A stretch of 64,000 bases of DNA from contig CAVOHX010000009.1 in assembly GCA_963695825.1 (NCBI GenBank), positions 133,168 to 197,167 of the forward strand. The letters run 5' to 3'. Made by a program: the position numbers and the translations under genes. The stretch's first letter is position 1. The number at the start of each line of letters is the position of its first letter. Below the pieces are notes generated by a model. The model was not told the origin of the DNA. It saw only the letters and a program-made list of their open reading frames with translations, and did no database searches. This DNA comes from an uncultured Chloroflexia bacterium (GTDB taxonomy: Bacteria > Chloroflexota > Anaerolineae > Promineifilales > UBA4811). This document shows positions 4,704 through 18,631 of the stretch, piece by piece.

Positions 4704-5777
4704 ATGACGGGTTACGTGTTTCGCAGGCTACTCTTGGCCATCCCCGTGCTGTTGGGCATTGTCTTTGTCGTGTTTGCGCTGGTGCGCATGATCCCGGGCG
4801 ACCCCTGCCGGGCCGCGCTGGGCGAGCGCGCCACCGACGAGATTTGCGATGCCTATATCGCGCGGCGCGGGCTTGACCAGCCGATTCCGGTCCAATTCTT
4901 CCGCTACCTGGGCGAATTGGTTCGGTTTGACTTGGGCGATTCGTTCCGGCAGGGTCGGCCGGTCACCGAAATGCTGACCGAAAAACTCCCGGTCACGATT
5001 GAATTGAGCATGTCGGCCTTGCTCTTTGCCGTGGCCGTGGGTATGCCGCTGGGCATCGTCTCGGCTTACCGGCACAACTCGACGCTTGATGTGGTGACAA
5101 TGGTCATCGCCAACGTCGGCGTGTCGATGCCGGTCTTTTGGCTTGGGTTGATGCTCCAGTACGTTTTTGCCGTCCTGCTGCGTGACACGGCGTGGCAACT
5201 GCCTCCCTCCGGCCGGCTGGCGGCCGGGCTCACGATTGCACCGCTGTACGATACCTGGGGCTGGGAGGTGAGCGGGGTTGCCAAGAGTCTCACCGAGTTT
5301 ATTTCAAATATGCACATCGTGAACGCGTTGGTGACCGGCAATTGGAAGGTCCTCGGGGATGCGCTCAAGCATATGGTTCTGCCGGCAATTGCCTTGGGCA
5401 CGATTCCCATGTCGATCATCGCCCGCATGACCCGTTCCAGCCTGTTGGAGGTCATGGGGCTGGAGTACATCCGGACAGCCCGCGCCAAAGGGCTGCGCGA
5501 ACAGGCGGTGATTCTGCGCCATGGCCTGCGCAACGCCATGTTGCCGGTCGTCACAGTAATCGGCCTCCAGTTTGGGTTGCTCCTGGCTGGAGCGGTGCTC
5601 ACCGAGACCATCTTTGGCCTCTCGGGGATTGGTCGCACGCTGTATGATGCCATTACCGGCCGCGACTATCGCGTGGTTGAAGGCTTTACCCTGGTGATTG
5701 CGGTCATCTTTATCGGCGTCAACATGGTGGTGGACGTCTCGTACGCCTACCTGGACCCGCGGGTGCGTCTGGACTAG
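4704..5777 (+). CDS. Peptide/nickel-type ABC transporter permease (DppB/OppB family).
   Basis: N-terminal MTGYVFRRLLLAIPVLLGIVFVVF. The family-typical motif YIRTARAKGLRE and the tail VVDVSYAYLDPRVR are present. Confidence 0.9.
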   Translation: MTGYVFRRLLLAIPVLLGIVFVVFALVRMIPGDPCRAALGERATDEICDAYIARRGLDQPIPVQFFRYLGELVRFDLGDSFRQGRPVTEMLTEKLPVTIELSMSALLFAVAVGMPLGIVSAYRHNSTLDVVTMVIANVGVSMPVFWLGLMLQYVFAVLLRDTAWQLPPSGRLAAGLTIAPLYDTWGWEVSGVAKSLTEFISNMHIVNALVTGNWKVLGDALKHMVLPAIALGTIPMSIIARMTRSSLLEVMGLEYIRTARAKGLREQAVILRHGLRNAMLPVVTVIGLQFGLLLAGAVLTETIFGLSGIGRTLYDAITGRDYRVVEGFTLVIAVIFIGVNMVVDVSYAYLDPRVRLD

Positions 5778-5802
5778 CCAGAGGCGGCTACGGATAGAAG
5801 AG

Positions 5803-6801
5803 ATGCCGACTCCCGAGAACCAAGATACCCGATCTGGCGATCGACCAGTGGACCTTTTGGACCATGACCTGGCGACCATGGACGAGGTGCTGCGACATGC
5901 GCCCAGCAGCCTCTGGCGGGATGCGCTGCGGCACGTTTTTCGCAAGCGATCCGCCATTGTGGGGATGACTATCCTGGGTGTGCTGGTATTGATCGCCATC
6001 TTTCATCCGCTGCTGGCTACCCACGATCCCAGCATCCCCATGTTGGATATCCCGGAGGAGGTGGCGGCCGGGGTTCGCAAACGAACTCCGCCGTGTATCC
6101 ATCTGCTGGGCTGCCCCGAAGAGCAGCCGCAGCACATCCTGGGCCTGGATGGGAATGTGCGGGACTTTTTCAGTCGCATGATGTACGGCTCCAAGTGGTC
6201 GCTGATCATTGGCTTTACCACGGTTACCTTTGCCATCATCGTGGGTACCATCCTGGGTGCGGTGGCGGGCTATGCCGGCGGATGGGTGGACAATGTCATC
6301 ATGCGGCTGATGGATGTCCTGCTTGCGTTTCCGTCGTTGATTCTCGCCATCGCCATTGTGACTGTGCTGGGGCCCGGCCTGGTTAACGCTCTGCTGGCGA
6401 TCGGCATTGTGTCGATACCGGTCTACGCCCGGATCATGCGGGCCAGCGTGCTGTCGGTCAAGGAGACGGATTACGTCGAGGCGGACCGCGCCCTTGGGGT
6501 TGGCTCGACGCGTTTGCTGTTTCATCGAATCCTGCCCAATGCTCTGACGCCGCTGATTGTCCAGGGGACCCTGGGGATCGCAACCGCTATCCTGGACGCG
6601 GCCGCCCTATCGTTTCTGGGTCTGGGAGCGCAACCGCCGATGCCCGAGTGGGGGTCCATGCTAGGCGCTGAACGCAACCAGGTTTTCAGCGCCCCACACC
6701 TGGTTTTCTTTCCCGGCATCGCCATCATGCTGACGGTCTTGAGCTTTAACCTGCTGGGCGACGGGTTGCGCGATGCGCTGGACCCGCGTCTGAATCGGTG
6801 A
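5803..6801 (+). CDS. Peptide/nickel-type ABC transporter permease (DppC/OppC family).
   Basis: ATG at 5803 lies downstream of the dppB-like stop. Motifs DYVEADRALGVGSTRLLFHRILPN and LGDGLRDALDPR are present. Confidence 0.9.
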   Translation: MPTPENQDTRSGDRPVDLLDHDLATMDEVLRHAPSSLWRDALRHVFRKRSAIVGMTILGVLVLIAIFHPLLATHDPSIPMLDIPEEVAAGVRKRTPPCIHLLGCPEEQPQHILGLDGNVRDFFSRMMYGSKWSLIIGFTTVTFAIIVGTILGAVAGYAGGWVDNVIMRLMDVLLAFPSLILAIAIVTVLGPGLVNALLAIGIVSIPVYARIMRASVLSVKETDYVEADRALGVGSTRLLFHRILPNALTPLIVQGTLGIATAILDAAALSFLGLGAQPPMPEWGSMLGAERNQVFSAPHLVFFPGIAIMLTVLSFNLLGDGLRDALDPRLNR

Positions 6802-6812
6802 AAGGACCAGCG

Positions 6813-7846
6813 ATGGCGATGGCAGATGGCGTCCAGAACCAGGCTGCAGTAGCCGATCAGCGGCCGGCGGCCGACGACATCCTGCTCGATGTGCGTGATT
6901 TGAGGACTCACTTTCACACGCTGGATGGTGTGGTCAAGGCAGTGGATGGGGTGGATTTGGCCGTGCGACGGGGGGAGGTTGTTGGGCTGGTCGGTGAATC
7001 GGGCTGCGGCAAAAGCGTGACGTCGTTCTCAGTGCTACGCCTGATCGCTCATCCCGGCCGGATTGAATCGGGTGAGGTCTGGTTTGATGGGACTAACCTG
7101 CTTGAACTTCCCATCAAAGAGATGACCCGCATCCGCGGCCGCCGTATCTCGATGATCTTTCAGCAGCCGACCGCCTGTTTGAACCCGGTCTACAACACGG
7201 AGTACCAACTGGCTGAGGTCTATCGCATTCACCAGAACCTGAGCCGCAAAGTCGGCCGCCAGCGTGCGCTGGAACTACTGCAAAAGGTCGGCATTCCAGA
7301 TCCCAAGCGTCGCTTGAAGGCGTTTCCGCACGAGCTCTCGGGCGGAATGGCGCAGCGGGTGATGATTGCCATGGCGCTCGCCTGCAACCCGACTTGCTCA
7401 TCGCCGATGAGCCGACCACGGCTCTGGATGTGACGATTCAGGCCCAGATTCTGGACCTGATGCGTGAACTTCAGGCCGAGCTGGGCGCGGCGATTGTCCT
7501 GATCACCCACGACCTGGGTGTTGTGGCCGAGATGGCTTCGCGCATTGCCGTCATGTACGCTGGCCAGATCGTAGAAGAGACCGACATCCGCAGCCTTTAT
7601 CGGTCACCCCAGCACCCATATACGATCGGTCTCATCGGATCGATCCCGGTGCTGGGCCAGATCAAGACCGAGCTTGACGTGATCCCGGGGACGGTGCCGA
7701 ACCTGATCGAGCTGCCCCCGGGCTGTCGGTTTGCCCCTCGATGCCGGGCGCGGGTAGAGAGGCAACTCGATATCTGCCTGCACGAGATCCCGCCATTGGA
7801 TCAGACTGCACCCGGTCACCTGGTCCGTTGCTGGCTTTATTCTTAA
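6813..7846 (+). CDS. Peptide ABC transporter ATP-binding protein (DppD/OppD family), with one frame break near 7390.
   Basis: ORFs 6798-7433 and 7394-7846 join as ...[10 protein letters not shown]|[21 protein letters not shown]. Motifs: [17 protein letters not shown], and the oligopeptide C-terminal motif GCRFAPRC. Confidence 0.85.
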
Positions 7847-7851
7847 CCGCC

Positions 7852-8875
7852 ATGTCCGTCGAACTCGATTGGTTGGTCCAAGAGTCGGAAAGTACTGTGG
7901 AGAACCTGATAGAAGTCCAGGATCTGGTAAAGCATTTCCCGGTCAAGGGAGGCTTGCTTCAACGTGTTCAGGGGTGGGTCAAGGCGGTCGATGGGGTCAG
8001 CTTTGCCATCCGCAGAGGTGAGACGCTGGGCTTGGTGGGCGAGTCGGGCTGTGGCAAGACAACGGTCGGGCGTACCTTGTTGAGACTGATCGAGCCCACC
8101 GCCGGAAAGGTCTTTTTCGAAGGGCGGAATCTCACCCAGTTGACCGCAGAGGAGATCAAACCGCTGCGGCGTGAGATGCAGTTGATCTTTCAGGATCCCT
8201 TTTCGTCGCTGGACCCTCGCTCACAGATTGCCGACGTCATCGGCGAGGGGCTCTATGTCCACGGTCGAGAAGGACGGCAATGAGCGGCGAAGGCAGGTAC
8301 TGGAGATTATGCGCCGGGTGGGGCTGGCAGAGGATCATTTGCGCCGCTATCCGCACGAGTTCTCGGGCGGACAGCGACAGCGCATTGGCATCGCGCGGGC
8401 ATTGATCCTGCGCCCCAAGTTCATCGTGTGTGACGAGCCGGTCTCGGCACTGGATGTGTCAATACAGGCTCAGGTCCTCAACCTATTGCGGAAGCTCCAG
8501 CGCGATTTTGACCTGACCTACCTGTTTATCGCCCACAACATGAGCGTGGTCGAGCACATCAGCGACCGGGTTGCTGTTATGTACCTGGGCAAAATCGTCG
8601 AGATTGCCGGGCAACGCAGTCTCTACAGCAACCCACTTCACCCCTACACCCAGGCCCTGCTGTCAGCGATTCCGGTGGCTGACCCCGACCGCAAGCGACA
8701 GCGGGAAATACTCACCGGCGATGTTCCCAGCCCGCTGAACCCGCCCTCTGGCTGCCGCTTCCACCCTCGCTGTCCCATCGCCAGCACGGATTGCTCGTCG
8801 ATTCAGCCGGAGCTGCGCTCACTGGCGCCTGATCATCAGGTGGCATGTCACTATGCGGAGCAGTTCCTGGTGTAG
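7852..8875 (+). CDS. Peptide ABC transporter ATP-binding protein (DppF/OppF family), with one frame break near 8265.
   Basis: ATG at 7852 lies 6 nt after the dppD-like stop. ORFs 7741-8283 and 8228-8875 join. Motifs: [33 protein letters not shown]. Confidence 0.85.
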
Positions 8876-9041
8876 GTCGGGACACGGCCGGTTGTAGCTG
8901 TTGTCTCTGGTCGGAGGATTGCAGACAGGAGGAGGTGGCCTTGGCTGAGGCGAGCGATGTACTCGACAGCCAGCCAACCCCCAAGCTGCCGGCCGACTGA
9001 TGGCACGCGCGCGTTCAGGCGCTCATGAGGAGGAAACCAAT

Positions 9042-11186
9042 ATGGAGATGCCTGCCGCTTCACAGGAGAAATCGGACCACAAGCTGGTCAGATGGTTGTT
9101 GAATCTGGTCGCCATCACGGTGGCCCTGAGCCTGCTGTATGCTGTACTGTTTTACCTCGGCGGGCCGGTCCGCTTGGCAGTGGTCACCGAGGTGTTGGAC
9201 CTGGCGTTTAAGACTGACGGCGAGCAGCTAGCGGTTGCAGCGCAGGACGGCACGGTCTGGCTCTACGATGTGAGCCGAGACTGGGCGGCAACCGCGCTCT
9301 CTGATCACGAGGCGCCGGTCATCGACGTAGCGATATCCCCTGATGGCTCTTCCCTGGTGTCCGTCGATCAAGAGGGTGAGGTCCGAATCTGGCAGGTTCC
9401 CGGGGGCCGGGTTGAGAAAGCGTTCAGCACCGGGGGCCCAGTGAGTCAGGCAGCCGTTGCGGCCGACGGATCGGTGTTGGCGACCTTGGGCGGCGATGAT
9501 ATCATCCGCACCTGGGAATTGCCCTCCGGTGATCAGCTTCAGTCCATTGGTCCCGAGGAGGGGGTTGGCCTATCGGTCGCGGTGAGTGCAGACGGCTCGC
9601 TGGTGGCGGCCGGCGTGGACGACAAGATCGGCCTCTGGGACTCGCACACCGGGGCGTTGGTGCGCACCCTGGAGGGCTATTGGGAGGATGAAACCCAAGA
9701 GGATTGGCTCGGGCACGACGAGGAAGTCACGGCGCTCGCCTTTAGTCCGGACGGGGAGATGCTCGCCTCGGGCAGCGCGGACACGACGATCAACTTTTGG
9801 GGAGTGGACACGGGCGAGGTGATTTGGCCGTCCGAGGGACACTGGGGGACAGTGACCAAGCTGGTGTTCAACGCCGAAGGCGATCTACTTCTTTCGGGCG
9901 GCAAGGACAACAAGGTCCGGAGTTTCCGGGTAGCCGGCGGTAGAAGCACCGCGCTGTACGAGGGGCACGTGGGTACCATCAATGGCGTCGCCTTTGGACC
10001 TACGCCCGATACCATTCTCACGGCCGCCAACGATGGCTCGGTGCGTCTCTGGGAGACAGCCAACCAGAAGGTCCAACACATCGAGTGGCCTCGGTATGGC
10101 CTGCAATCGGTGTGGGGCGACCTCTTTGGCATCTGGACACTCGTCAGCGGCGTTCTCGGCGCGATATGCCTGGTTGGCCTGCGCCGACGCAAGACATGGA
10201 GCCATCTGGTAACACTGGCGCTGTTCCTGGTGGGACCCATCGTGGTGCTTGGTCTTCCTCTGCTCGAGGCGCTATCGTATCCGATATCGACTGGTATCAA
10301 ACTGCAAATTGGTTGGCCCTTGGTGTTGCTCGCTGCCTGGTATTCGGCGTTGGTGGTGTTGCTAATGCGGGACAGCGTCGTGGCCGTGTATGAGGCTCCG
10401 CGTGATGTGCCGTTGGCCGACCGCTTGGTGATCAGCCAACGCACCGCCAAATCCCGTTTTGGGATCTTTGGTTTGGGGACGTGGATGCTGGTGTTGGTGC
10501 TGCTCTATTCCGTGCTGCGACGCTTTAACCTCGACATCGCGTTCATGGGCCACTTTTTCTCCTTTATCATGCAGGGGAGCTGGATCACGCTGCGCATCTC
10601 GGCCATCTCTATCCTGCTGGCGGTGGTCCTGGCCCTGGTGGGCGCCTTGGGGCGTCTGTCCAAGAACCCGGCTGCGAACGGCTTGGCCAGCTTTTATGTG
10701 TCGCTCATTCGTGGCACACCGCTCCTGGTGCAGGTGTACATTTGGTACCTGGGTTTGCCGCGGTTGGACATTGTGCTTCCCGGAGAGCTAGCCGGCATAT
10801 TGGCGCTCGGGGTGAACTATGGCGCCTATATGTCAGAAACCTTTCGCGCGGGGATTCAGGCGATTGGCAAGGGGCAGTACGAAGCGGCGCAGGCGTTGGG
10901 GATGACGCGAGGGCAGACGTTTCGCAGGATCGTTCTACCACAGGCCTTCCGTATTGTGATTCCACCGATTGGCAACGATTTCATCGCCATGATGAAGGAC
11001 TCGTCGCTGGTGTCGGTGATGGCCATCTGGGAGCTGACGTATCGGGCGCAAAAGATCGGCCGGCAGAACTTTCGCAACATGGAGACCTTTATCATCGCCG
11101 CCGCGTTCTACTGGCTGCTGACGGTGGTATTCCAATTCCTTCAGGGCAAGCTGGAGGATTACATGGCTCGCGGCGAAAGGAGGTAA
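9042..11186 (+). CDS. Seven-bladed WD40 beta-propeller fused, through extra TM helices, to a HisM/GlnP-type polar amino acid ABC permease.
   Basis: AGGAGG lies 8 nt before the ATG at 9042. One N-terminal TM helix precedes seven WD-like repeats ending WLYDV, RIWQV, RTWEL, GLWDS, NFWGV, RSFRV and RLWE. About four TM helices follow. A complete permease domain ends the protein (GTPLLVQVYIWYLGLP, AAQALGMTRGQTFRRIVLPQA). Confidence 0.85.
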   Translation: MEMPAASQEKSDHKLVRWLLNLVAITVALSLLYAVLFYLGGPVRLAVVTEVLDLAFKTDGEQLAVAAQDGTVWLYDVSRDWAATALSDHEAPVIDVAISPDGSSLVSVDQEGEVRIWQVPGGRVEKAFSTGGPVSQAAVAADGSVLATLGGDDIIRTWELPSGDQLQSIGPEEGVGLSVAVSADGSLVAAGVDDKIGLWDSHTGALVRTLEGYWEDETQEDWLGHDEEVTALAFSPDGEMLASGSADTTINFWGVDTGEVIWPSEGHWGTVTKLVFNAEGDLLLSGGKDNKVRSFRVAGGRSTALYEGHVGTINGVAFGPTPDTILTAANDGSVRLWETANQKVQHIEWPRYGLQSVWGDLFGIWTLVSGVLGAICLVGLRRRKTWSHLVTLALFLVGPIVVLGLPLLEALSYPISTGIKLQIGWPLVLLAAWYSALVVLLMRDSVVAVYEAPRDVPLADRLVISQRTAKSRFGIFGLGTWMLVLVLLYSVLRRFNLDIAFMGHFFSFIMQGSWITLRISAISILLAVVLALVGALGRLSKNPAANGLASFYVSLIRGTPLLVQVYIWYLGLPRLDIVLPGELAGILALGVNYGAYMSETFRAGIQAIGKGQYEAAQALGMTRGQTFRRIVLPQAFRIVIPPIGNDFIAMMKDSSLVSVMAIWELTYRAQKIGRQNFRNMETFIIAAAFYWLLTVVFQFLQGKLEDYMARGERR

Positions 11187-11190
11187 TCCG

Positions 11191-11967
11191 ATGACTGAAG
11201 AGCGACAGACTCGAGAGTCCAAGACGATGATCAAGGTACGCGACCTGCACAAGTTCTTTGGACCTCTGCACGTCATCAGAGGGGTGGACCTGGAGGTGGC
11301 GCAGCGCGAGGTCGTGGTAATCATTGGGCCATCAGGCGGCGGCAAGAGCACGTTTTTGCGCTGCTTGAACTTTCTTGAAGAGCCGTCGGCCGGCACGATC
11401 GAGGTAGATGGGGTGGAGATCAGGGCGCGCGAGCCGGCCCGCGAGCAGCGCAAGCACATACGGGAGATCCGGCAAAAAGCGGGCATGGTGTTTCAGCAAT
11501 TCAACCTGTTTCCACACATGACGGCGATTGGCAACATTATCGAAGCGCCGCTCACGGTAAAGAAAATGTCCCGGCCGGAGGCCGTGGCCAAGGGTGAGGA
11601 GCTGTTGAGGTGGGTTGGCCTATCGGAGAAACGGGACGAGTTCCCCTCCCGGCTCTCGGGCGGCCAGCAGCAGCGCGTCGCGATCGCTCGGGCGTTGGCG
11701 ATGGAGCCCAAGATTATGCTATTCGACGAACCTACCTCGGCGCTCGATCCGGAGCTGATCGGCGAGGTGGTAGAGGTGATGGAGCGCATGGCGGACGAGG
11801 GCATGACCATGGTGGTGGTGACCCATGAGCTGCATTTCGCCCGTGACGTGGCTGATCGCGTGATTCTGATGGCCGACGGCGTGTGGGGAGAAATGGCTCC
11901 CCCCGACGTGTTTTTTACGAACCCCAAGGAGGAGCGTACGCGCCAGTTTCTGGCTCACATCTTGTGA
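11191..11967 (+). CDS. Polar amino acid ABC transporter ATP-binding protein (GlnQ/HisP family).
   Basis: AAGGAGG RBS. Motifs: GPSGGGKST, LSGGQQQRVAIARALAMEP, IMLFDEPTSALDPE, VVTHELHFARDVADRV. Confidence 0.9.
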   Translation: MTEERQTRESKTMIKVRDLHKFFGPLHVIRGVDLEVAQREVVVIIGPSGGGKSTFLRCLNFLEEPSAGTIEVDGVEIRAREPAREQRKHIREIRQKAGMVFQQFNLFPHMTAIGNIIEAPLTVKKMSRPEAVAKGEELLRWVGLSEKRDEFPSRLSGGQQQRVAIARALAMEPKIMLFDEPTSALDPELIGEVVEVMERMADEGMTMVVVTHELHFARDVADRVILMADGVWGEMAPPDVFFTNPKEERTRQFLAHIL

Positions 11968-12250
11968 GTTCAGGCGCCGTCGTGTAACGCGGGTATTGAG
12001 GAGAGGAACGATGTTCACTGGTATGGGGTGGCCAAATCTCGCCAGTGGCCTCTAATCCATAGCCCCAGGTGGGCAGATGCGACTGGCTCAAGCGGGCGGC
12101 AAGGGGCCGCTTTGTCTTGTGCCGGCGGCCGTGGGCGGCGTTCAACGCGGCTATCCTCCGCTCTGCCCGTTCCCCATGTGAAAACTAAAGGCAGGTTGCC
12201 GTCTCGCCTGCCGAGATGAACAGACCGTGAATATCAAGGAGAAAAGCGTC

Positions 12251-13716
12251 ATGAGACCGAAACTGAACATACTCGGCGACGAACTGGTTGAGCAGATCAT
12301 CGCTGAAGGATTCGAGTTGCTGATGGACCCGGGCGTCCGGGTCCACAATGCCGAAGCGCTCCGGTTGCTAGCAGAGGCCGGTGCCGCAAGTGCACATGGA
12401 CACGATGATCGCTCACATACCGCAGGCGTTGGTACGAAAGGCGCTAGAGACGCGCCCATCCGAGTTTTATCTCTACGATCTGGACGGCGAGCGGTGGTGC
12501 ATTACGGGGGCGACAGCGTGCAGTTTGACCCCGGCTCGGCCGCCATCACCATCCTGGACAGCGAAACCCAGGAGCAGCGCGTCCCGGTGACGGCCGACTT
12601 TGTCAAGTTTGTCAAGCTGGTGGAGATGATCCCCCAGTTGGACGCCCAGAGCACGGCGATGATCTGCGTCGACGTCCCGGAAGAGGTCGGCGACCTGTAC
12701 CGCCTCTACCTGGCGCTCAACTATATGCGCAAGCCCATCATCACCGGCGCGTTCCGCAAGGACACCTGGTGGACCATGAAGGACATGCTGGTGGCGATGG
12801 TGGGCAGCGAAGAGGCGCTGGCGGCCAAGCCAATCGCCGTGTTCGATGTCTGCCCGTCGCCGCCTTTGCTGTGGAGCGATCTGACCTGCCAGAACATGAT
12901 CGACTGCGGCGCGCTATGGCATCCCGTCGGAGCTGGTCTCGATGCCGCTCGCGGGCGCCACGGCGCCGGTCACCCTGGCGGCCGCGGTTGTCCAGCACAC
13001 GGCCGAGTGCATGAGCGGCGTGACCATCTGCCAATTGGCGCAGGAGGGTGCGCCCATCGTGTGGGGCGGCTCGCCGGCTGCCTTTGACATGCGCGAAGGC
13101 ACCACCCCGATGGGAGCGGTTGGCACCTGGATGATTGACTGCGCCTACACTCAGGTCGGCAAGGCGCTGAACATGCCGACCCACGCCTACCTGGGCATGT
13201 CGCGATGCCAAAGTCGTTGACGCCCAGTGTGGACTCGAGTCGGCCGGCGGCACGATCATGGCGGCGCTGGCGGGCGTCAACATGGTGTCCGGCGCCGGCA
13301 TGATGGACTTTGAGAGCTGCCAGAGTTTCGAAAAGCTGGTGATCGACGCCGAGATCATCGGCATGGCCAAGCGGCTCATCGCCGGTGTCGAGGCGCGCGA
13401 ACAGCCGATTGCGCTGGGTCTGATGCGCAAGCTCCAGCACCGGGCAGACTACCTGGCCCAACCGCATACCCTCAAGTGGTTCAACAAAGAGCTGTACATC
13501 CCGTCGTCGGTGATCGACCGCGCCTCCCTGGATGGCTGGAAGAAAAAGGGCGCCAAAACGACGTGGGAGCGCGCCCAAGACCGCGTGAAGCAGTTGCTGG
13601 CAGCCTATACGCCGCCCGCGGTGTCGGCCGACTTGCGCGCCGAACTGCGGAATATTGCGACCAGTGCGGCGAGCAAATTCGGCATGGACGAATTGCCGCC
13701 GCTCGCTTTTGACTAA
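12251..13716 (+). pseudogene. MttB-superfamily (trimethylamine methyltransferase-like, non-Pyl) methyltransferase, broken by at least 4 frame shifts near 12388, 12491, 12910 and 13202.
   Basis: AAGGAG precedes the ATG at 12251. Fragments in three frames join collinearly: ...AEAGA|VHMDTMIAHIPQALVRKALETRPSEFYLYDLDGER|VVHYGGDSVQFDP...NMIDC|ARYGIPSELVSMPLAGATAPVTLAAAVVQHTAE...AYLGMS|DAKVVDAQCGLESAGG...GAGMMDFES. No in-frame TAG is needed. The breaks may be sequencing indels rather than true decay. Confidence 0.75.
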
Positions 13717-13747
13717 CACCCACCAATCAAGCCTAAGGAGCGCAGAG

Positions 13748-14392
13748 ATGTCAGATGATCTGTATAAACAAATGGTCGCCAGCATTATTGAGGGCGATCC
13801 GGATGTCACGGTAGAGCTGACCAAACAGGGGATTCAAGCCGGTCTTGAGCCGCTTGATATCGTTAACCGGGGCCTGGTGCCGGGGATGGATGTCGTTGGG
13901 GAAAAGTTCCAGACCGGAGAGTACTTTTTGCCCCATCTGATCATCGCTGCTTCGGCCATGCAGCAGGCGATGGCGTTGCTGGAGCCCGAGTTGCAGGCAC
14001 GGCAGCAGGTGGTGGAGGTGGTGGGTACGGTGGTAATCGGCACCGTCGAGGGCGACATCCACGAGATTGGCAAGTCGCTGGTGGCGACCATGTTGTCCGC
14101 GCACGGCTTTCAGGTGTACGATCTGGGAATCGACGTGGCGACCGAGACCTTTGTGGCTGCGGTAAGGGAAAAAGGCGCCAATCTACTGGGGTTGTCAGCG
14201 CTTCTGACCACTACCATGACGGCCCAGCGCAAGGTGATCGAGGCGCTGGACGAGGCGGGCATTCGCGACCAGGTCAAGGTCCTCGTCGGCGGCGCGCCGG
14301 TCAGCCAGGAGTGGGCCAACACAATCGGCGCTGATGGGTATGCGGAGGATGCGATTGGCGCGGTGGAGGTGGCCCGCCAACTGGCAGCCTAG
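13748..14392 (+). CDS. Corrinoid (cobalamin-binding) protein of the methyltransferase system (MtbC/MttC/MtgC-like).
   Basis: An N-terminal B12-binding_2-like helical cap is followed by the DxHxxG motif in GTVEGDIHEIGKSLV. The Rossmann-like segment LLGLSALLTTTM...VLVGGAP is also present. Confidence 0.9.
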   Translation: MSDDLYKQMVASIIEGDPDVTVELTKQGIQAGLEPLDIVNRGLVPGMDVVGEKFQTGEYFLPHLIIAASAMQQAMALLEPELQARQQVVEVVGTVVIGTVEGDIHEIGKSLVATMLSAHGFQVYDLGIDVATETFVAAVREKGANLLGLSALLTTTMTAQRKVIEALDEAGIRDQVKVLVGGAPVSQEWANTIGADGYAEDAIGAVEVARQLAA

Positions 14393-14591
14393 TTAACGGC
14401 GAGAGACTGGACCCGCGACGCGGCGAGCTACGCCGTTCTCCAGCCGCGGTCCAGCCTCGTGATGGAATCGAGTGGCAGGCCCTGCGCTGTTAGGCAGGGC
14501 CTGCTGCAGATTAGGCAGCAGCGAACGAAATCGATGTGCTGAAGGCATGCTGCGCCGTGGATCAACGGACAAACAGAGAAAGGAGTACGTC

Positions 14592-16055
14592 ATGGCAGGC
14601 TCGATCAAAGCCATCACCGACCCCCGATTCAAGCTGGCGGTGCTCAGCGCCGAGGATGTTGAGACGCTCCACACTGCCACGCTGGATGTAATCGAGAATG
14701 TCGGAGTGCGGTTTCCCAGCACGCGTGCCCTCGATATCTGGGAGTCCCACGGCGCGCTGGTTGACCGGGACAGTATGATTGTCCGCGCCCGTGGGGAGCT
14801 GATCCAAGACGCCCTTAAACAAGCGCCACCCCTCTACACGCTGGCGGCGCGCGATTCTGCGTTGGACCTGGCTCTGGATGGGAATCACGCCTACGTGGGC
14901 ACCGACGGTTGTGGGGTGCAGGTGGTCGATATCGAAACTGGAGAGCGCAGGCAGTCCCGTCTGCAGGACGTGGTCGAGATCGCGCGGGTTGCAGATGCGT
15001 TAGAGCAGGTGGCTTTTCATTGGGTAGCGGTCTCGGCTCAAGACTGTCCCCCAGAGACACGCGGCCTGTACGAGATCAAGGCAATCTGGGAAAACTCGAC
15101 CAAGCACGTGCAGACCGAGAGTATCTACTCGGAGCACGAAGCACGGGCAGCAATCGAGATGGCAGCGGCGATCGCCGGCGGCCGTGATGTGCTGCGCCAG
15201 CGGCCGGTCCTGTCCATCATGCAGTGCACGCTGTCCCCGCTGGGCCAGGACGGCGGCAGTCTGGACGCGGCCTTGATCGGCGCCGAGGCCGGCCTACCGG
15301 TGGGCTTTATGACGATGGCTTCCTGCGTGACCACCGGCCCCGCCACACCGGCAGGGAATCTGGTGGTGGGCAACGCAGAGGTGGTAAGCGCCACAGCCTT
15401 GATCCAGCTTGCGCATCCCGGCGCGCCGGTTTTCTACGCGGCGGCTCAGACGGCGGCCGATCTGCGGACCGGGGCCTACACCGGGGGCGGCCCCGAGGAT
15501 TTCCTGTTTGGCGCGGCGACCAACCAGTTGGCCGATTATTATGACATTCCGCTTTCAATGGGCGCGTTTGCCACCGGGGCCAAAGAGCCCGATTGGCAAG
15601 CAGGTGTCGAGAACAGCCTCTCCTGCCTGATGGCGTCGGCCGTGATGTCCGATATGATGTTGGGGATAGGTTTGCTGCACGGCAGCCGTATCTGGTCATA
15701 CGAGCAGATGCTCATGGATTGTGAGGTGTTTGACATCGTTCACGGCATGATGCAGGGGATCGTCGTGAACGATGACACACTGGCACTGGACGTGATCCGG
15801 CAGGTGGGGCCAGGCGGCAACTTTCTCGCCCAAAAGCACACCCTGCAGAACATGGGCGGACTCTGGGTACCCAAATACATGGATCGGCGGCCGTACCAGG
15901 TGTGGGAAACCAAGCGGGACGGCGCCCGGGATTGGGCCAGGAGCGAGGCGCAACGAATCCTGCGCAATCATCAGCCCGAGCCTCTGGAGACGGGCCTGGC
16001 GGCCGAGCTTGCCAGCATCATCGCCTCGACCGAGCGCAGGATCAAGCGCCAGTAG
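14592..16055 (+). CDS. MttB-superfamily methyltransferase, intact, with no amber codon (non-pyrrolysine type, substrate unknown).
   Basis: GAAAGGAG RBS precedes the ATG at 14592. The 487-codon ORF is uninterrupted. Family-typical blocks are present: LSAEDVETLHTATLDVIENVGVRF, GPATPAGNLVVGNAEV, GGNFLAQKHT. Confidence 0.88.
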   Translation: MAGSIKAITDPRFKLAVLSAEDVETLHTATLDVIENVGVRFPSTRALDIWESHGALVDRDSMIVRARGELIQDALKQAPPLYTLAARDSALDLALDGNHAYVGTDGCGVQVVDIETGERRQSRLQDVVEIARVADALEQVAFHWVAVSAQDCPPETRGLYEIKAIWENSTKHVQTESIYSEHEARAAIEMAAAIAGGRDVLRQRPVLSIMQCTLSPLGQDGGSLDAALIGAEAGLPVGFMTMASCVTTGPATPAGNLVVGNAEVVSATALIQLAHPGAPVFYAAAQTAADLRTGAYTGGGPEDFLFGAATNQLADYYDIPLSMGAFATGAKEPDWQAGVENSLSCLMASAVMSDMMLGIGLLHGSRIWSYEQMLMDCEVFDIVHGMMQGIVVNDDTLALDVIRQVGPGGNFLAQKHTLQNMGGLWVPKYMDRRPYQVWETKRDGARDWARSEAQRILRNHQPEPLETGLAAELASIIASTERRIKRQ

Positions 16056-16153
16056 AGCGTCAGGGGCGGGCGCTCGATTTGACCACCCACGCTTTGCAGT
16101 TAGAATTCTGAGGCGGGTGTGACTGCCCGCAAAGGATAAACTCGGAGAGCTGA

Positions 16154-18631
16154 ATGCTGACAAGGCGACCATTGCTGTGGCTTGCGCCGGTGGTGCTGAT
16201 ACTGCTGATCTCTGGCTGTTCCCGCGCCGACGAACCGGCCGGAACACTGGTCCCGGCCGAGGCTACACCGGAGCAAGCGAGCGAGCCTGAACCGACCCCG
16301 CTGCCCGAGATAACGATCGTCGAGCGCGAGCAGTTGGTGGTGGGCGTCGATGCGGCGTTCCCACCCTTTGTGGATCTCAATCGGGATGGCGAGTATATCG
16401 GCATCGAGGTTGATCTATTTGCCGCCATCGCTGATCTCGCCGGCCTGGACTATCAGCTTCAGAGCGCCGACTGGGACGCAGTTTTCGACGACCTGATTAG
16501 TGGGCGGTTCAACATGGTGTTTGGAGGGCTGGTGCAAGACAATGCGCCAGCCGCCCTGGTCGAGCTCACAGAGCCCTACTTTGAGTTGGGCCAGGTGGCG
16601 GTCACGCGGGGGAATAGAGAAGACATCACGGCTCTGGAAGACCTGGCGGGCGCCACCGTTGGCGTCGTTCCTCTCTCCTGGGGAGAATATGCCGTCACGG
16701 GCCAGTCGTCCTCCTTGCCAGGAGGCTACCAGGTGCCGCCAGGCAACATCCGGCATTATGACACCGCCGAGAAGCTGGTGGAAGCGCTCTTTGCTGACTA
16801 TGTGGATGTCATTGTCACCGATCACACGGTGATCGAGAGCTTTCTCGCCGTCAACCCAGACGATATGCGCGTTCTGCGGCCGCGGGGCCAGGAGGGAGAA
16901 GGGGCGGGCTCCGACGCATGGCTGGCGGCTCATCGTTTTCACATCGCGGTCCCCAAGGGGGCCGACGAGTTGCTCGCCTCACTGAACGCAGCCATTGAGC
17001 AGGCCCGGTCCGAGGGCCAGATTGCGGCGGTAATGGAGGGGTGGGGCTTTGTACCCGAGTTTGTCGAACGCCCCCGATTCGTCCAGGACGCCGGGGCATC
17101 CTCGCTGATTGCGGGCGTCGAAAAGGTGGACGATATGACGGTTCGATTCGTCCTCAACCGACCGGACCCCAACTTTGATTACAAAATGGCGGTCCCGGCG
17201 ATGGCCATCCATAGCCCGGCGAACCTAGAGCTGTACGCCGGCGGGGACCTCGGTCTGAACCCGGTTGGCACCGGTCCATATGGTCTGGCTGGATGGGAGC
17301 CAGGCCAGGCGCTCACGCTGACCGCCAGTCCCAGCTATTGGGGAGTGGCGCCGCTGATTGACACGATTCTGGTGCGGACGGTCCCGGACGCGGCCGAACG
17401 ATTTCGATTGTTAAAGGCCGGCGAGGTTCAGTTGGTGGACAGCCTGGGGCCAGAGGACTTGGCGGCGCTCGAAGAAGAGGAAGATGAAAAGATCGTCGTC
17501 TATCCCCGGGCGCCGGTCAACATCGCTTACCTGGGTATGAATCGTGATACGGCGCCGTTTGACGAGCGCCTGGTTCGGTTGGCGGTAGCCACGTGTATCG
17601 ATCAACCGGCGCTGGTAGAGACGGTGTATCCGACGGGCACGCTGGTGGCGCACCAGTTCGTGCCGCCTAACACTTTTGGCTTTTCCCCAGGATTGCTGTG
17701 GTACGATCAGGACAGTGAAGGCGCCGCGGCATTGCTCGCGGATGCCGGGTATTCTGCGGAGCTTGCACTGACCTTGAGCTTTGCCAATGTGCCCAGCGAC
17801 TACCTGCCTGAACCGAGGTTGATCGCCGAGGCGATCCGGGGCCAGCTTGGCGCCTGTGGGATCACGACCACATTGGAGAGCCTCGACGCCGACACGTATG
17901 TTGAACGCCTGGAGGCAGGCGAGCTGCCGTTGCATCTGGGTGGCTGGTCGGCCGATTATCCCGGCCCGATCAGTTTTTTGAACACCCATTTCACCGGCGT
18001 GGGGACCGGTCTGCAATTCGGCGCCCCTTTTCCGGAGGTAGTTGAGCGGCTCGAGCAGGCGGCCGAGAGTTCAGATCGTACGCTTCGCCAGGAGCTATAC
18101 AATCAGGTGAATCAGTTGCTTAAGGAAAAGGTCGTTTTCGTGCCCTTGGCGCATGGTAGCTCGGCGCTGGCTGCCCGATCCACGCTGAACGGTGTCGTCA
18201 CCAACCCTGTGCGGCGGGAATCACTGACCCGGGTGGGACCCTTTACGGACACAGCGACGATCACCACTTTTGTCTATGCCGTGCGCAGCGATCCGCTCTC
18301 CTTGGATCCGACCGACGAATGGGATGATGCAACATTCGAGATAACCAGCCAGGTTTATGACACGTTGGTCGATTTCGAGCCGGCGACGACAGTGCTCACG
18401 CAGGGGCTGGCGATCGAGTGGTCCTCCAACGAGAGCTATGATGTCTGGGAATTCACCCTGCGGCCGGGGGTGCGTTTCCAGGACGGAACGCCGCTAACTG
18501 CCGACGCCGTTATCGTGAACTTTGAACGGCTGTGGGATCCAGAACACCCGTGGCGCAACGGTCGCACAGGGGCATTTCGGTATTTTCGGGCGCTTTTTGG
18601 GGGCTTTAAGGAACCTCAAGGGCGACAGTAG
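16154..18631 (+). CDS. Second lipoprotein with an SBP family 3 domain fused to a circularly permuted SBP family 5 domain (paralog of 1986-4505).
   Basis: Lipobox ISGC. SBP3 block LVVGVDAAFPPFVDLN...GIEVDLFAAIADLAG. The SBP5 core starts at VEKVDDMTVRFVL and includes PVGTGPYGLAGWEPGQALTLTASPSYWG. The canonical SBP5 N-terminal block (FVYAVRSDPLSLDP...WEFTLRPGVRFQDGTPLTADAV...AFRYFRALFGG) sits at the C-terminus. Confidence 0.85.
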   Translation: MLTRRPLLWLAPVVLILLISGCSRADEPAGTLVPAEATPEQASEPEPTPLPEITIVEREQLVVGVDAAFPPFVDLNRDGEYIGIEVDLFAAIADLAGLDYQLQSADWDAVFDDLISGRFNMVFGGLVQDNAPAALVELTEPYFELGQVAVTRGNREDITALEDLAGATVGVVPLSWGEYAVTGQSSSLPGGYQVPPGNIRHYDTAEKLVEALFADYVDVIVTDHTVIESFLAVNPDDMRVLRPRGQEGEGAGSDAWLAAHRFHIAVPKGADELLASLNAAIEQARSEGQIAAVMEGWGFVPEFVERPRFVQDAGASSLIAGVEKVDDMTVRFVLNRPDPNFDYKMAVPAMAIHSPANLELYAGGDLGLNPVGTGPYGLAGWEPGQALTLTASPSYWGVAPLIDTILVRTVPDAAERFRLLKAGEVQLVDSLGPEDLAALEEEEDEKIVVYPRAPVNIAYLGMNRDTAPFDERLVRLAVATCIDQPALVETVYPTGTLVAHQFVPPNTFGFSPGLLWYDQDSEGAAALLADAGYSAELALTLSFANVPSDYLPEPRLIAEAIRGQLGACGITTTLESLDADTYVERLEAGELPLHLGGWSADYPGPISFLNTHFTGVGTGLQFGAPFPEVVERLEQAAESSDRTLRQELYNQVNQLLKEKVVFVPLAHGSSALAARSTLNGVVTNPVRRESLTRVGPFTDTATITTFVYAVRSDPLSLDPTDEWDDATFEITSQVYDTLVDFEPATTVLTQGLAIEWSSNESYDVWEFTLRPGVRFQDGTPLTADAVIVNFERLWDPEHPWRNGRTGAFRYFRALFGGFKEPQGRQ

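What the first reader, a model, noticed from the sequence alone, without database searches (positions are those of the whole stretch)
16154..18631. A second, diverged copy of the SBP3 plus permuted-SBP5 lipoprotein closes the locus
The 825-residue paralog has the same order of parts: lipobox, SBP3, SBP5 core starting at VEKVDDMTVRFVL, then the displaced N-terminal block FVYAVRSDPLSLDP…WEFTLRPGVRFQDGTPLTADAV…AFRYFRALFGG. Its DNA sequence is clearly different from the first copy.

Two independent copies with identical break points make an assembly artefact unlikely. They indicate a stable, duplicated architecture. The two copies flank the transporter and methyltransferase genes.
Basis: seen in the sequence. 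Interest (0 to 1): 0.6.

Follow-up and report, generated by a model that had tools for sequence, protein, structure and literature searches.

The report
Second two-headed lipoprotein with permuted peptide binder
This gene is real and encodes a membrane-anchored nutrient receptor that joins an amino-acid-type binding module to a peptide-type binding module whose chain order is naturally rearranged. It is an old paralogue of the first copy, sits next to one transporter for each module, and has lost the acid-group contacts in both binding pockets.

Summary
Window 16154-18631 (+) is an intact 825-codon gene. It encodes a lipobox, an SBP_bac_3 domain (aa 58-298), and a circularly permuted DppA-like SBP_bac_5 domain. 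In that domain aa 314-690 match E. coli DppA 119-500 and aa 705-813 match DppA 2-117.

Copy 2 is collinear with the first copy (1986-4505) at 31% protein identity. The two share almost no DNA similarity, so neither is an assembly duplicate.

All proteins with this break point form one clade. The two copies therefore inherited the break, and they diverged early within a family found in about half of the sampled genomes of the class.

Across loci, the number of binding heads matches the number of neighbouring permease sets. This supports one head per ABC translocator: the SBP5 head for DppBC(DF) and the SBP3 head for the WD40-fused polar-amino-acid permease with its GlnQ-like ATPase.

Copy 2 has its own conserved promoter. 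Its clade has replaced the carboxylate-binding Arg in both heads. MttB plus a corrinoid protein lie directly upstream in 5 of 9 syntenic loci, so the link is recurrent but not obligatory.

An earlier follow-up in this scan reached the same family-level reading for copy 1. No paper found describes this architecture.

The parts
16079..16106 (+). Promoter-like site TTGACC-16 nt-TAGAAT upstream of copy 2
   Evidence: It matches 10 of 12 consensus positions. Both hexamers, the GGAGA ribosome-binding site and the ATG are conserved upstream of the orthologues in L011 and L012.
16154..16219 (+). Signal peptide and lipobox (aa 1-22, LISGC; Cys22 is the predicted lipidation site)
   Evidence: Read from the translation. 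Cys22 is conserved in at least 90% of 25 and of 90 aligned homologues. No signal-peptide predictor was run.
16220..16324 (+). Pro/Glu/Thr-rich flexible tether (aa 23-57)
   Evidence: pLDDT is below 50 for aa 17-47 in the model. The composition is low-complexity.
16325..17047 (+). SBP_bac_3 head (aa 58-298), cluster F polar-amino-acid type, with a non-canonical pocket (Pro132 in place of the carboxylate-binding Arg)
   Evidence: Pfam PF00497 scores 85 bits. The best solved matches are AncQR 4zv1 and ArtJ 2pvu.
17048..17092 (+). Inter-head linker (aa 299-313)
   Evidence: It lies between the two domain matches. pLDDT dips to about 80 there.
17093..18223 (+). Permuted SBP5 head, first part: aa 314-690 match DppA residues 119-500
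   Evidence: phmmer alignment to 1dpe, 1dpp and 3m8u. Foldseek to DppA and GbpA gives rmsd 2.4-3.8 over about 390 columns.
18224..18265 (+). Junction joining the ancestral C-terminus to the ancestral N-terminus (aa 691-704)
   Evidence: It lies between the two DppA-aligned stretches. pLDDT is 80-87.
18266..18592 (+). Permuted SBP5 head, displaced N-terminal block: aa 705-813 match DppA residues 2-117
   Evidence: The block holds many invariant columns (for example D724, W765, R770, D777, W794, Y810). pLDDT is 87-98.
18593..18631 (+). C-terminal tail and stop codon
1986..4505 (+). Copy 1: paralogous SBP3 plus permuted SBP5 lipoprotein (839 aa)
   Evidence: It retains the Arg/Asp pair of the DppA pocket.
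4704..8875 (+). DppB, DppC and frame-broken DppD/DppF: the putative translocator for the SBP5 heads
   Evidence: Pfam and NCBIfam. DppD/F is split into four ORFs.
9000..11967 (+). WD40-fused polar-amino-acid-type permease and GlnQ-like ATPase: the putative translocator for the SBP3 heads
   Evidence: TIGR01726 and TcyN/GlnQ matches. It is the only such permease in the assembled genome.
12227..16055 (+). MttB-like gene (frame-broken), corrinoid protein, and an intact non-Pyl MttB-like gene, directly upstream of copy 2's promoter
   Evidence: The same slot holds MttB plus a corrinoid protein in L097, L098, L100 and L102.

Best explanation
Copy 2 is a surface-tethered, two-headed substrate-binding lipoprotein of a Chloroflexota (Anaerolineae-type) bacterium.

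Shown:
- It has a lipid anchor and a flexible tether.
- Next comes an SBP3 (cluster F) head.
- Last comes a complete DppA-like cluster C head. The first roughly 117 residues of that head have been moved to the C-terminus.
- This permutation arose once and is shared by a large family.

Inferred:
- Each head closes on its own ligand and docks on its own ABC translocator encoded in the locus.
- The permuted SBP5 head docks on DppBC(DF). The SBP3 head docks on the WD40-fused polar-amino-acid-type permease with its GlnQ-like ATPase.
- Copy 1 and copy 2 are alternative receptors for the same two importers, in the way several SBPs share one translocator elsewhere.
- Copy 2 is transcribed from its own promoter.

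The copy-2 clade has replaced the carboxylate-binding Arg in both heads but keeps the ammonium-binding Asp of the DppA pocket. It therefore probably captures ligands different from ordinary amino acids and dipeptides, possibly amine-type compounds without a free carboxylate.
For: Architecture and permutation. The model is confident (pLDDT 88.9, pTM 0.75) and its fold matches DppA, GbpA and SapA.

Family reality:
- 105 SBP3-plus-permuted-SBP5 proteins and 58 stand-alone permuted proteins were found among 389 fetched.
- 142 of 301 genomes of the class give a match of E 1e-60 or better. The listed matches are single segments, most of them spanning the ancestral C- to N-terminus junction.

Heads match translocators:
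- Stand-alone permuted SBP5 genes are followed by DppBC(DF) only (L014-L019, L021-L024, L026, L027, L054, L096).
- L013 has the unfused state: permuted SBP5, DppBC, SBP3, polar-amino-acid permease, GlnQ.
- SBP3-plus-permuted-SBP5 loci carry DppBC plus a polar-amino-acid permease plus GlnQ (window, L011, L012, L093/94, L097-L101; in L102 the contig ends before any Dpp genes).
- The three-headed SBP8+SBP3+permuted SBP5 protein (L095) also has two extra permeases upstream.

Own genome: it holds exactly two PF00497 domains (the two heads) and one TIGR01726 permease.

Own promoter: conserved in three genomes.

Pocket signature: the position of the canonical SBP3 Arg is Pro132 in 21 of 24 core copy-2 proteins, against Arg in 64 of 64 copy-1-type proteins. 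The DppA R355 equivalent is Ser/Thr548 followed by Asp549 in 24 of 24, against Arg-Gly in most copy-1-type proteins. Asp601 (DppA D408) is invariant.

In E. coli DppA, R383 and D436 (precursor numbering, the same two residues) bind the dipeptide carboxyl and amino groups, and the double charge-reversal mutant loses binding (PMC12136057).
Against: No biochemical data exist. Docking of each head on a given translocator is inferred from gene neighbourhood only.

Several relatives (L012, L093, L097, L099, L101) have DppBC but no DppD/F. In the window DppD/F are frame-broken, so the SBP5-head importer may lack its own ATPases or use ones encoded elsewhere.

The genome is only 57% complete, so a free SBP3 gene or a second permease could be unassembled.

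The altered pockets could mean loss of ligand binding in one head rather than a new specificity. Against that, the substituted residues are themselves conserved.

The relative orientation of the heads, and the position of the new termini relative to the docking face, could not be examined because no model coordinates were available.
Confidence: 0.65

Rival explanations
1. Copy 2 is a dedicated receptor for the substrate of the neighbouring MttB/corrinoid methyltransferase. It would capture a methylated or quaternary amine, which one of the two importers takes up for cytoplasmic demethylation. This refines the substrate rather than the mechanism.
For: MttB plus a corrinoid protein sit directly upstream of copy 2's promoter in 5 of 9 syntenic loci spanning 53-72% identity (window). 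They are absent from every locus examined that lacks a copy-2-type gene. Both copy-2 heads have lost their carboxylate-binding Arg but keep an acidic or ammonium-binding residue. The MttB-like protein is nearest to the glycine betaine and trimethylamine methyltransferases among solved structures.
Against: Four copy-2 loci lack MttB yet keep the same pocket signature. Characterised non-Pyl MttB substrates such as glycine betaine carry a carboxylate (my own knowledge). No aromatic cage typical of quaternary-amine binders was looked for or seen. Copy 2 has a separate promoter.
Confidence: 0.2
2. Only one head is a transport receptor. The other is a spacer, an anchor, a decayed remnant, or a sensor that signals rather than delivers cargo.
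For: Both copy-2 pockets deviate from the canonical residues. The permuted SBP5 module is also used as the extracellular part of Ser/Thr kinases (P0251, P0276, P0373, P0384), so it can act as a sensor. DppD/F are missing or broken in several loci.
Against: Both heads are under clear constraint, with many invariant columns and conserved substituted pocket residues. The number of heads tracks the number of adjacent permease sets. No signalling partner is present in the locus.
Confidence: 0.12
3. The gene is an assembly chimera, a pseudogene, or a truncated tandem SBP5 remnant without a complete fold.
For: The window has frequent frame breaks in neighbouring genes (DppD/F, the first MttB-like gene, a LivF-like gene).
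Against: The 825-codon frame is intact. About 26 orthologue-level proteins (37-65% identity) come from independent assemblies. Synteny holds in eight other contigs. The two DppA-aligned stretches together cover DppA residues 2-500 exactly once. The model is confident throughout.
Confidence: 0.02

Closest known systems
E. coli/Yersinia DppA and Haemophilus GbpA/HbpA (cluster C, SBP family 5; PDB 1DPP, 1DPE, 5F1Q, 3M8U; DppABCDF complex 8Z1Y/8Z1Z)
   Same: The two stretches together align with the whole of DppA (residues 2-117 and 119-500) at about 27% identity. The fold match has rmsd 2.4-3.8. The ammonium-binding Asp (D408 mature, D436 precursor) is conserved. DppB- and DppC-type permeases are adjacent.
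   Different: The chain starts at DppA residue 119 and ends with residues 2-117. It is fused behind an SBP3 domain and lipid-anchored. In copy 2 the carboxylate-binding Arg (R355/R383) is Ser, followed by Asp.
Treponema pallidum Tp0684 (MglB-2), proposed 'cluster Bc' circularly permuted glucose-binding lipoprotein (PMC4990184)
   Same: It is a natural circular permutation of an ABC substrate-binding protein that retains function. It occurs in tethered (lipoprotein) receptors. The authors proposed that the new topology may be an adaptation to tethering.
   Different: It belongs to a different structural cluster (B, sugar-binding), has a different break point, and has a single domain with no heterologous fusion.
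Lactococcus lactis GlnPQ with tandem substrate-binding domains (PDB 6H30, 4KPT, 4LA9)
   Same: Several cluster F binding domains with different specificities sit on one polypeptide and compete for or share a translocator. Copy 1's SBP3 head matches these domains best.
   Different: In GlnPQ the domains are of one family, are fused to the permease itself, and serve one translocator. Here the heads are of different families, sit on a separate lipoprotein, and appear to serve different translocators.
Copy 1 of this window (1986-4505) and its clade
   Same: Same order of parts and same break point. Both lie in the same locus and both are lipoproteins.
   Different: Protein identity is 31%. The SBP3 heads belong to different lineages. 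Copy 1 keeps Arg in both pockets and has a Cys pair (C.YGG...TLC) at the new N-terminus that copy 2 lacks. Copy 1's clade is very large, whereas copy 2's had about 27 members in the search.

Membership tests
SBP family 5 / cluster C (Pfam PF00496, DppA/OppA/NikA type) | Sequence match above the curated threshold | tested here: met
   266.6 bits against a cut-off of 32.4, in two stretches.
SBP family 5 / cluster C (Pfam PF00496, DppA/OppA/NikA type) | Canonical N-to-C order of the fold elements | tested here: not met
   Profile positions 62-364 precede positions 4-57. DppA 119-500 precedes DppA 2-117.
SBP family 5 / cluster C (Pfam PF00496, DppA/OppA/NikA type) | Bilobed cluster C fold | tested here: met
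   The AlphaFold2 model has pLDDT 88.9. Foldseek top hits are DppA, GbpA and SapA, with target-normalised TM 0.67-0.70 over the sequential part. The spatial position of the displaced block was not checked with a non-sequential alignment.
SBP family 5 / cluster C (Pfam PF00496, DppA/OppA/NikA type) | Dipeptide-type pocket pair: Arg (R355/R383) for the carboxylate and Asp (D408/D436) for the ammonium group | tested here: not met
   Asp601 is conserved, but the Arg position is Ser548 (Ser/Thr in 24 of 24 core copy-2 proteins). Copy 1 has both residues.
SBP family 5 / cluster C (Pfam PF00496, DppA/OppA/NikA type) | Genomic association with DppBC/OppBC-type permeases | tested here: met
   DppB and DppC lie at 4704-6801 and are present in every related locus with enough flank.
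SBP family 3 / cluster F polar amino acid binders (Pfam PF00497) | Sequence match above the curated threshold | tested here: met
   85.3 bits against a cut-off of 26.4, over aa 61-298.
SBP family 3 / cluster F polar amino acid binders (Pfam PF00497) | Conserved Thr/Arg motif (GMTIT.ER) that binds the alpha-carboxylate | tested here: not met
   P0001 has GLVQDNAP, with Pro132 at the Arg position (Pro in 21 of 24 core copy-2 proteins, Arg in 64 of 64 copy-1-type proteins).
SBP family 3 / cluster F polar amino acid binders (Pfam PF00497) | Asp that binds the alpha-ammonium group | tested here: inconclusive
   P0001 has Asp223, but the clade consensus is His (21 of 24). The assignment rests on sequence alignment only.
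SBP family 3 / cluster F polar amino acid binders (Pfam PF00497) | Association with a His/Glu/Gln/Arg/opine-type permease and a GlnQ-type ATPase | tested here: met
   TIGR01726 domain at 9000-11186 and TcyN/GlnQ-like ATPase at 11191-11967. They are the only such permease and the only SBP3 domains in the assembly.
Bacterial lipoprotein | Signal peptide ending in a lipobox [LVI][ASTVI][GAS]C | tested here: met
   MLTRRPLLWLAPVVLILLISGC, with Cys22 at least 90% conserved. This is by inspection; no predictor was run and lipidation is untested.
GlnPQ-type tandem substrate-binding domains | Binding domains fused to the permease, all of one family | tested here: not met
   Copy 2 is a separate gene with its own promoter, and its heads belong to two families.
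Cluster Bc (TpMglB-2-like permuted SBPs) | Permuted cluster B sugar-binding fold | tested here: not met
   The sequence and fold matches are to cluster C and cluster F proteins only. Only the principle is shared.

The most novel reading that the evidence does not exclude
The cluster C (SBP5) scaffold is a natural hot spot of circular permutation and modular reuse in Chloroflexota.

Besides the break at DppA 117/119 (one origin, found in about half of the class's sampled genomes), full-length lipoproteins exist with at least four other break points:
- at the lobe boundary (CAB order);
- at three different places inside the C-lobe (CABC order).

Some of these are nested in the permuted clade next to recent tandem duplicates. 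Others arose independently among canonical proteins.

The permuted module serves as a plug-in C-terminal head behind SBP3, SBP8+SBP3, LivK-type binders and Ser/Thr kinases. This creates multi-headed receptors, each head feeding its own ABC translocator.

The copy-2 clade in particular would be a receptor for carboxylate-free amines linked to corrinoid-dependent demethylation.
Probability: 0.3. Interest if true: 0.8.

Novelty: new variant of a known kind. Interest (0 to 1): 0.62.

Why it matters
Substrate-binding proteins are textbook examples of a conserved fold with a conserved chain topology. They are also the standard scaffolds for engineered biosensors, which are usually made by artificial circular permutation.

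This family gives a large set of natural, selected permutants of the peptide-binding (cluster C) scaffold, with several different break points.

It also gives natural heterotypic fusions in which the number of heads tracks the number of adjacent translocators. If each head really serves its own importer, this is a new way of organising ABC uptake at the surface of bacteria that use lipid-anchored receptors: one anchored protein supplying several transporters.

The copy studied here adds a clade whose two pockets have both lost their carboxylate contacts and which is repeatedly linked to MttB/corrinoid genes. That yields a concrete, testable lead to the unknown substrates of non-pyrrolysine MttB enzymes in Chloroflexota.

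Tried and rejected
- **Literature:** four full-text searches for permuted or heterotypically fused SBPs found no description of this architecture. The only precedents were TpMglB-2 and GlnPQ. The library is limited to open-access papers.
- **MttB as a late insertion:** I first read the MttB/corrinoid cassette as an insertion private to this genome, because L011 and L012 lack it. Four more loci with the cassette in the same slot overturned that.
- **Permutation needed for fusion:** I considered that the permutation might be required to fuse SBP3 in front. This is rejected. SBP3 plus canonical-order SBP5 fusions exist (P0319; L012:1587-3877), and so do stand-alone permuted proteins.
- **Simple whole-gene duplication:** this is not supported as the origin of the two copies. 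The SBP3 heads fall in different deep lineages, and copy 2's SBP5 module is sister to a LivK-fused protein.
- **Genome-contig scan:** Block order had to be re-derived by tblastn.
- **L078:** it looked like another permutant but is probably two adjacent canonical genes cut by the contig end.
- **MttB specificity:** it could not be assigned. The glycine betaine and trimethylamine enzymes score about equally.
Full report
**1. Observation**

Window 16154-18631 (+) is an uninterrupted 825-codon ORF. The product starts with a signal peptide ending in the lipobox LISGC (Cys22), followed by a Pro/Glu/Thr-rich stretch.

Pfam finds SBP_bac_3 at aa 61-298 (85 bits). It finds SBP_bac_5 in two stretches in swapped order. 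Profile positions 62-364 lie at aa 316-616, and positions 4-57 lie near the C-terminus.

Against solved structures the mapping is exact. Residues 705-813 align with residues 2-117 of mature E. coli DppA, and residues 314-690 align with DppA 119-500. The whole DppA chain is therefore present once, cut between residues 117 and 119. The old ends are joined by a 14-residue connector.

The first copy (1986-4505, 839 aa) has the same domain hits. It aligns collinearly with copy 2 over aa 60-818 at 31% identity. With block HMMs both proteins start and end the SBP5 blocks at the same positions.

At the DNA level the two genes share one weak 154-nt segment, and the longest exact word in common is 12 nt. 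Collapsed or duplicated assembly repeats are excluded without needing reads.

**2. Structure**

An AlphaFold2 model was built on a 90-sequence alignment. It is confident (mean pLDDT 88.9, pTM 0.75). Only the signal peptide and tether are disordered, and the displaced block scores 87-98.

Foldseek against the PDB ranks Yersinia and E. coli DppA, GbpA, SapA and the DppA chain of the DppABCDF complex first. The rmsd is 2.4-3.8 over about 390 columns, and the target-normalised TM-score is 0.67-0.70. That is what a sequence-order-dependent aligner should give when about 120 residues sit elsewhere in the chain.

I could not run a non-sequential superposition, so the exact packing of the displaced block is inferred, not shown.

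**3. The family**

Copy 2 has about 26 full-length relatives at 37-65% identity. All of them have SBP3 plus SBP5. Copy 1's clade is far larger, with thousands of hits.

I classified 389 fetched proteins with HMMs for four blocks:
- S = the SBP3 domain;
- A = DppA 2-117;
- B = DppA 119 to about 270;
- C = the rest of the SBP5 domain.

| Block order | Meaning | Count |
|---|---|---|
| ABC | canonical | 136 |
| SBCA | SBP3 plus permuted SBP5 | 105 |
| BCA | stand-alone permuted | 58 |
| BCABCA | tandem permuted | 2 |
| SABC | SBP3 plus canonical SBP5 | 1 |
| CAB | other break point | 3 |
| CABC | other break point | 5 |

A 186-residue query spanning the old-C to old-N junction found 690 cluster representatives at E 1e-10 or better among 1.84 billion. 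About half of the top 150 carry the junction as one contiguous stretch.

In 301 sampled genomes of the same class, 142 gave a match at E 1e-60 or better (113 of the 216 high-quality genomes, and 74 of 176 genera). The listed matches are single segments, most of them spanning the junction.

Named genomes with the permuted order are Chloroflexota: Anaerolineaceae, Ca. Epilinea, Limnocylindrales, Chloroflexia and Thermoflexales. One MAG labelled Devosiaceae also has it. All other phyla returned the canonical order.

NCBI and JGI name these proteins only as generic substrate-binding proteins.

**4. Evolution**

I cut the blocks, re-ordered them into a common register, and built a tree of 91 units.

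- All BCA-order proteins form one clade (SH-aLRT 94, and 99 for the clade without its earliest-branching member). The break at 117/119 therefore arose once, and both copies in the window inherited it.
- The copy-2 clade is monophyletic. Its sister is P0252, a LivK-type (Peripla_BP_6) plus permuted SBP5 fusion.
- Copy 1 sits in the large sister clade, interleaved with stand-alone, tandem and three-headed proteins.

A tree of the SBP3 heads shows at least three deep lineages attached to permuted SBP5. It also shows clear head swapping. P0141's SBP5 part is 86% identical to copy 1's, yet it carries a different SBP3 lineage.

The two copies are thus ancient paralogues of a modular family. A single duplication of an already fused gene is not required.

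This tree was a quick search with LG+G4, and the block HMMs were trained on permuted proteins. The deep branches deserve a more careful analysis.

**5. Context and mechanism**

The window reads as follows:
- copy 1;
- DppB and DppC;
- DppD and DppF, in four ORF pieces;
- a WD40-fused His/Glu/Gln/Arg/opine-type permease;
- a GlnQ/TcyN-like ATPase;
- a frame-broken MttB-like gene;
- a corrinoid protein;
- an intact non-Pyl MttB-like gene;
- copy 2;
- PlsY on the other strand.

Eight other contigs share this neighbourhood. Seven of them also share the downstream genes (Fer4, arginase, baeRF, two HtrA, DnaJ, and PlsY in most). L097 does not.

Across architectures the number of binding heads equals the number of permease sets next door:

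| Receptor | Neighbouring transport genes | Loci |
|---|---|---|
| Stand-alone permuted SBP5 | DppBC(DF) only | L014-L019, L021-L024, L026, L027, L054, L096 |
| Unfused permuted SBP5 and SBP3 | permuted SBP5, DppBC, SBP3, PAAT permease, GlnQ | L013 |
| SBP3 plus permuted SBP5 | DppBC plus PAAT permease plus GlnQ | window, L011, L012, L093/94, L097-L101 (L102 is cut before any Dpp genes) |
| SBP8+SBP3+permuted SBP5 (P0137) | two further permeases upstream, plus both other sets | L095 |

PAAT here means the polar-amino-acid type of permease.

The assembled genome is 57% complete. It contains exactly two PF00497 domains, which are the two heads, and exactly one TIGR01726 permease.

This is the basis for the proposed mechanism: a tethered receptor in which each head delivers to its own translocator, with copies 1 and 2 as alternative receptors. 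It is an inference from gene neighbourhood. No docking or transport has been shown.

**6. What is specific to copy 2**

(a) It has its own promoter-like site, TTGACC-16-TAGAAT, at 16079-16106, and a GGAGA ribosome-binding site. Both hexamers are conserved upstream of the orthologues in L011 and L012. There a terminator hairpin of the upstream operon precedes the site.

(b) Its clade has a conserved, non-canonical signature in both pockets.
- In the SBP3 head, the Arg of the GMTIT.ER motif is Pro132 in 21 of 24 core members. It is Arg in 64 of 64 copy-1-type proteins.
- The neighbouring Thr is Ala or Asp, and a T-H-H-T motif replaces V/S-D-x-P. P0001 itself has T-D-H-T.
- In the SBP5 head, the position of DppA R355 is Ser/Thr548 followed by an invariant Asp549. 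Copy-1-type proteins have Arg there, mostly followed by Gly.
- Asp601, the equivalent of DppA D408, is invariant throughout.

[quoted passage not shown] The double charge-reversal mutant no longer binds dipeptides (PMC12136057).

Copy 2 therefore probably does not bind ordinary dipeptides or alpha-amino acids in the canonical way. Because the substituted residues are themselves conserved, a changed specificity is more likely than decay. Ligands with an ammonium group but no free carboxylate are one possibility.

(c) MttB plus a corrinoid protein occupy the slot between the GlnQ-like ATPase and copy 2's promoter in 5 of 9 loci: the window, L097, L098, L100 and L102. They are absent in L011, L012, L099 and L101 (the last two are near-identical). 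None of the loci without a copy-2-type gene has them.

On the copy-2 gene tree, presence needs fewer changes if it is ancestral (two losses) than if it was gained (three or more gains). A gene tree is a weak guide for this.

The MttB-like protein scores about equally against the glycine betaine and trimethylamine methyltransferase structures, so its substrate stays open.

**7. Comparison with what is known**

The nearest characterised proteins are DppA and GbpA for the SBP5 head and AncQR, ArtJ and GlnH for the SBP3 head.

Natural circular permutation of an ABC binding protein has one described precedent that I could find. This is T. pallidum MglB-2, a tethered cluster B sugar binder. Its authors proposed the label 'cluster Bc' and suggested a link to tethering (PMC4990184).

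All permuted SBP5 proteins seen here are likewise tethered. They are lipoproteins, or they sit behind another extracellular module or a kinase with a membrane segment.

Tandem binding domains are known from GlnPQ. Those are of one family, fused to the permease, and serve one translocator.

Four full-text searches found no paper on a permuted SBP5 or on heterotypic SBP fusions.

An earlier follow-up in this scan, on copy 1 of the same window (e1-3619586), reached the same family-level conclusion. My tests were made independently and agree with it.

**8. Verdict**

The finding is real, and its interpretation is essentially right.

The protein is a new variant of known kinds: cluster C and cluster F binding proteins, permuted and fused. 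It belongs to a large family that has no description in the papers I could search.

What this copy adds:
- a distinct clade with altered pockets in both heads;
- its own promoter;
- a recurrent link to MttB/corrinoid genes.

The surrounding analysis adds evidence for one origin of this break point, several further break points elsewhere in the family, and frequent exchange of heads.

Confidence is about 0.95 for the architecture and about 0.65 for the one-head-per-translocator mechanism. The amine or MttB-substrate idea stands at about 0.2.

Noticed in passing
L027:1164-2930 (P0241); also P0340, P0375, P0305, P0330, P0273, P0082, P0087: Full-length SBP5 lipoproteins exist with other circular-permutation break points. 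Some break at the B/C lobe boundary (CAB order). Others break at three different places inside the C-lobe (CABC order). Most have a normal signal peptide and lipobox. P0241 and P0305 are nested in the BCA clade, while the others sit among canonical proteins, which suggests independent events.
   Followed up: partly
P0139, P0140 (about 1050-1100 aa): These are tandem permuted SBP5-SBP5 proteins whose two units are nearly identical (tree distance about 0.004-0.03). They are recent tandem duplications, the expected raw material for re-permutation by truncation.
   Followed up: partly
P0251, P0276, P0373, P0384; P0252, P0245, P0259: The permuted SBP5 module is also fused behind Ser/Thr protein kinase domains (receptor kinases) and behind LivK-type Peripla_BP_6 binding domains. 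It always sits at the C-terminal end.
   Followed up: partly
L012:1587-3877: In a syntenic relative the copy-1 slot holds an SBP3 head 84% identical to copy 1's, fused to a canonical-order SBP5 of another lineage. The gene carries frameshifts. The SBP5 module was exchanged while the head was kept.
   Followed up: partly
window 6798-8875; L012, L093, L097, L099, L101: DppD/DppF are split into four ORF pieces in the window. They are absent altogether from five related loci that keep intact DppB and DppC. Which ATPase powers DppBC there is unclear.
   Followed up: partly
window 12182-13716: The first MttB-like gene can only be read by joining pieces in three frames, with no amber codon involved. 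In four relatives the same slot holds an intact 487-489 aa MttB followed by a 214-aa corrinoid protein. The window's second, intact MttB copy is extra.
   Followed up: partly
L018:10001-11512 (MAG labelled Devosiaceae): A permuted SBP5 gene whose core is about 58% identical to copy 1's lies on a 1.26-Mb contig of a MAG labelled as an alphaproteobacterium, next to DppBCDF. This is either horizontal transfer or mis-binning or mislabelling.
   Followed up: no
L097:8451-9940 and 12721-13260: In the closest relative a Uma2-family gene and a DUF5647 gene sit between the corrinoid gene and copy 2. An IS1595-type zinc-ribbon gene follows copy 2 in place of PlsY. The slot around copy 2 is prone to insertions.
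   Followed up: no
G000:C19:36034-39237 and G000:C16:8050-12146: The same genome encodes canonical-order SBP5 domains at the end of very long open frames (about 1050-1070 aa) with large unidentified N-terminal parts. Fusion of SBP5 behind other modules is not limited to the permuted form.
   Followed up: no
window 2976-3100 (copy 1) and stand-alone relatives: Copy-1-type permuted heads carry a conserved Cys pair (C.YGG ... TLC.PD) right at the new N-terminus. It may be a disulfide stapling the new chain end. Copy 2 lacks it.
   Followed up: no
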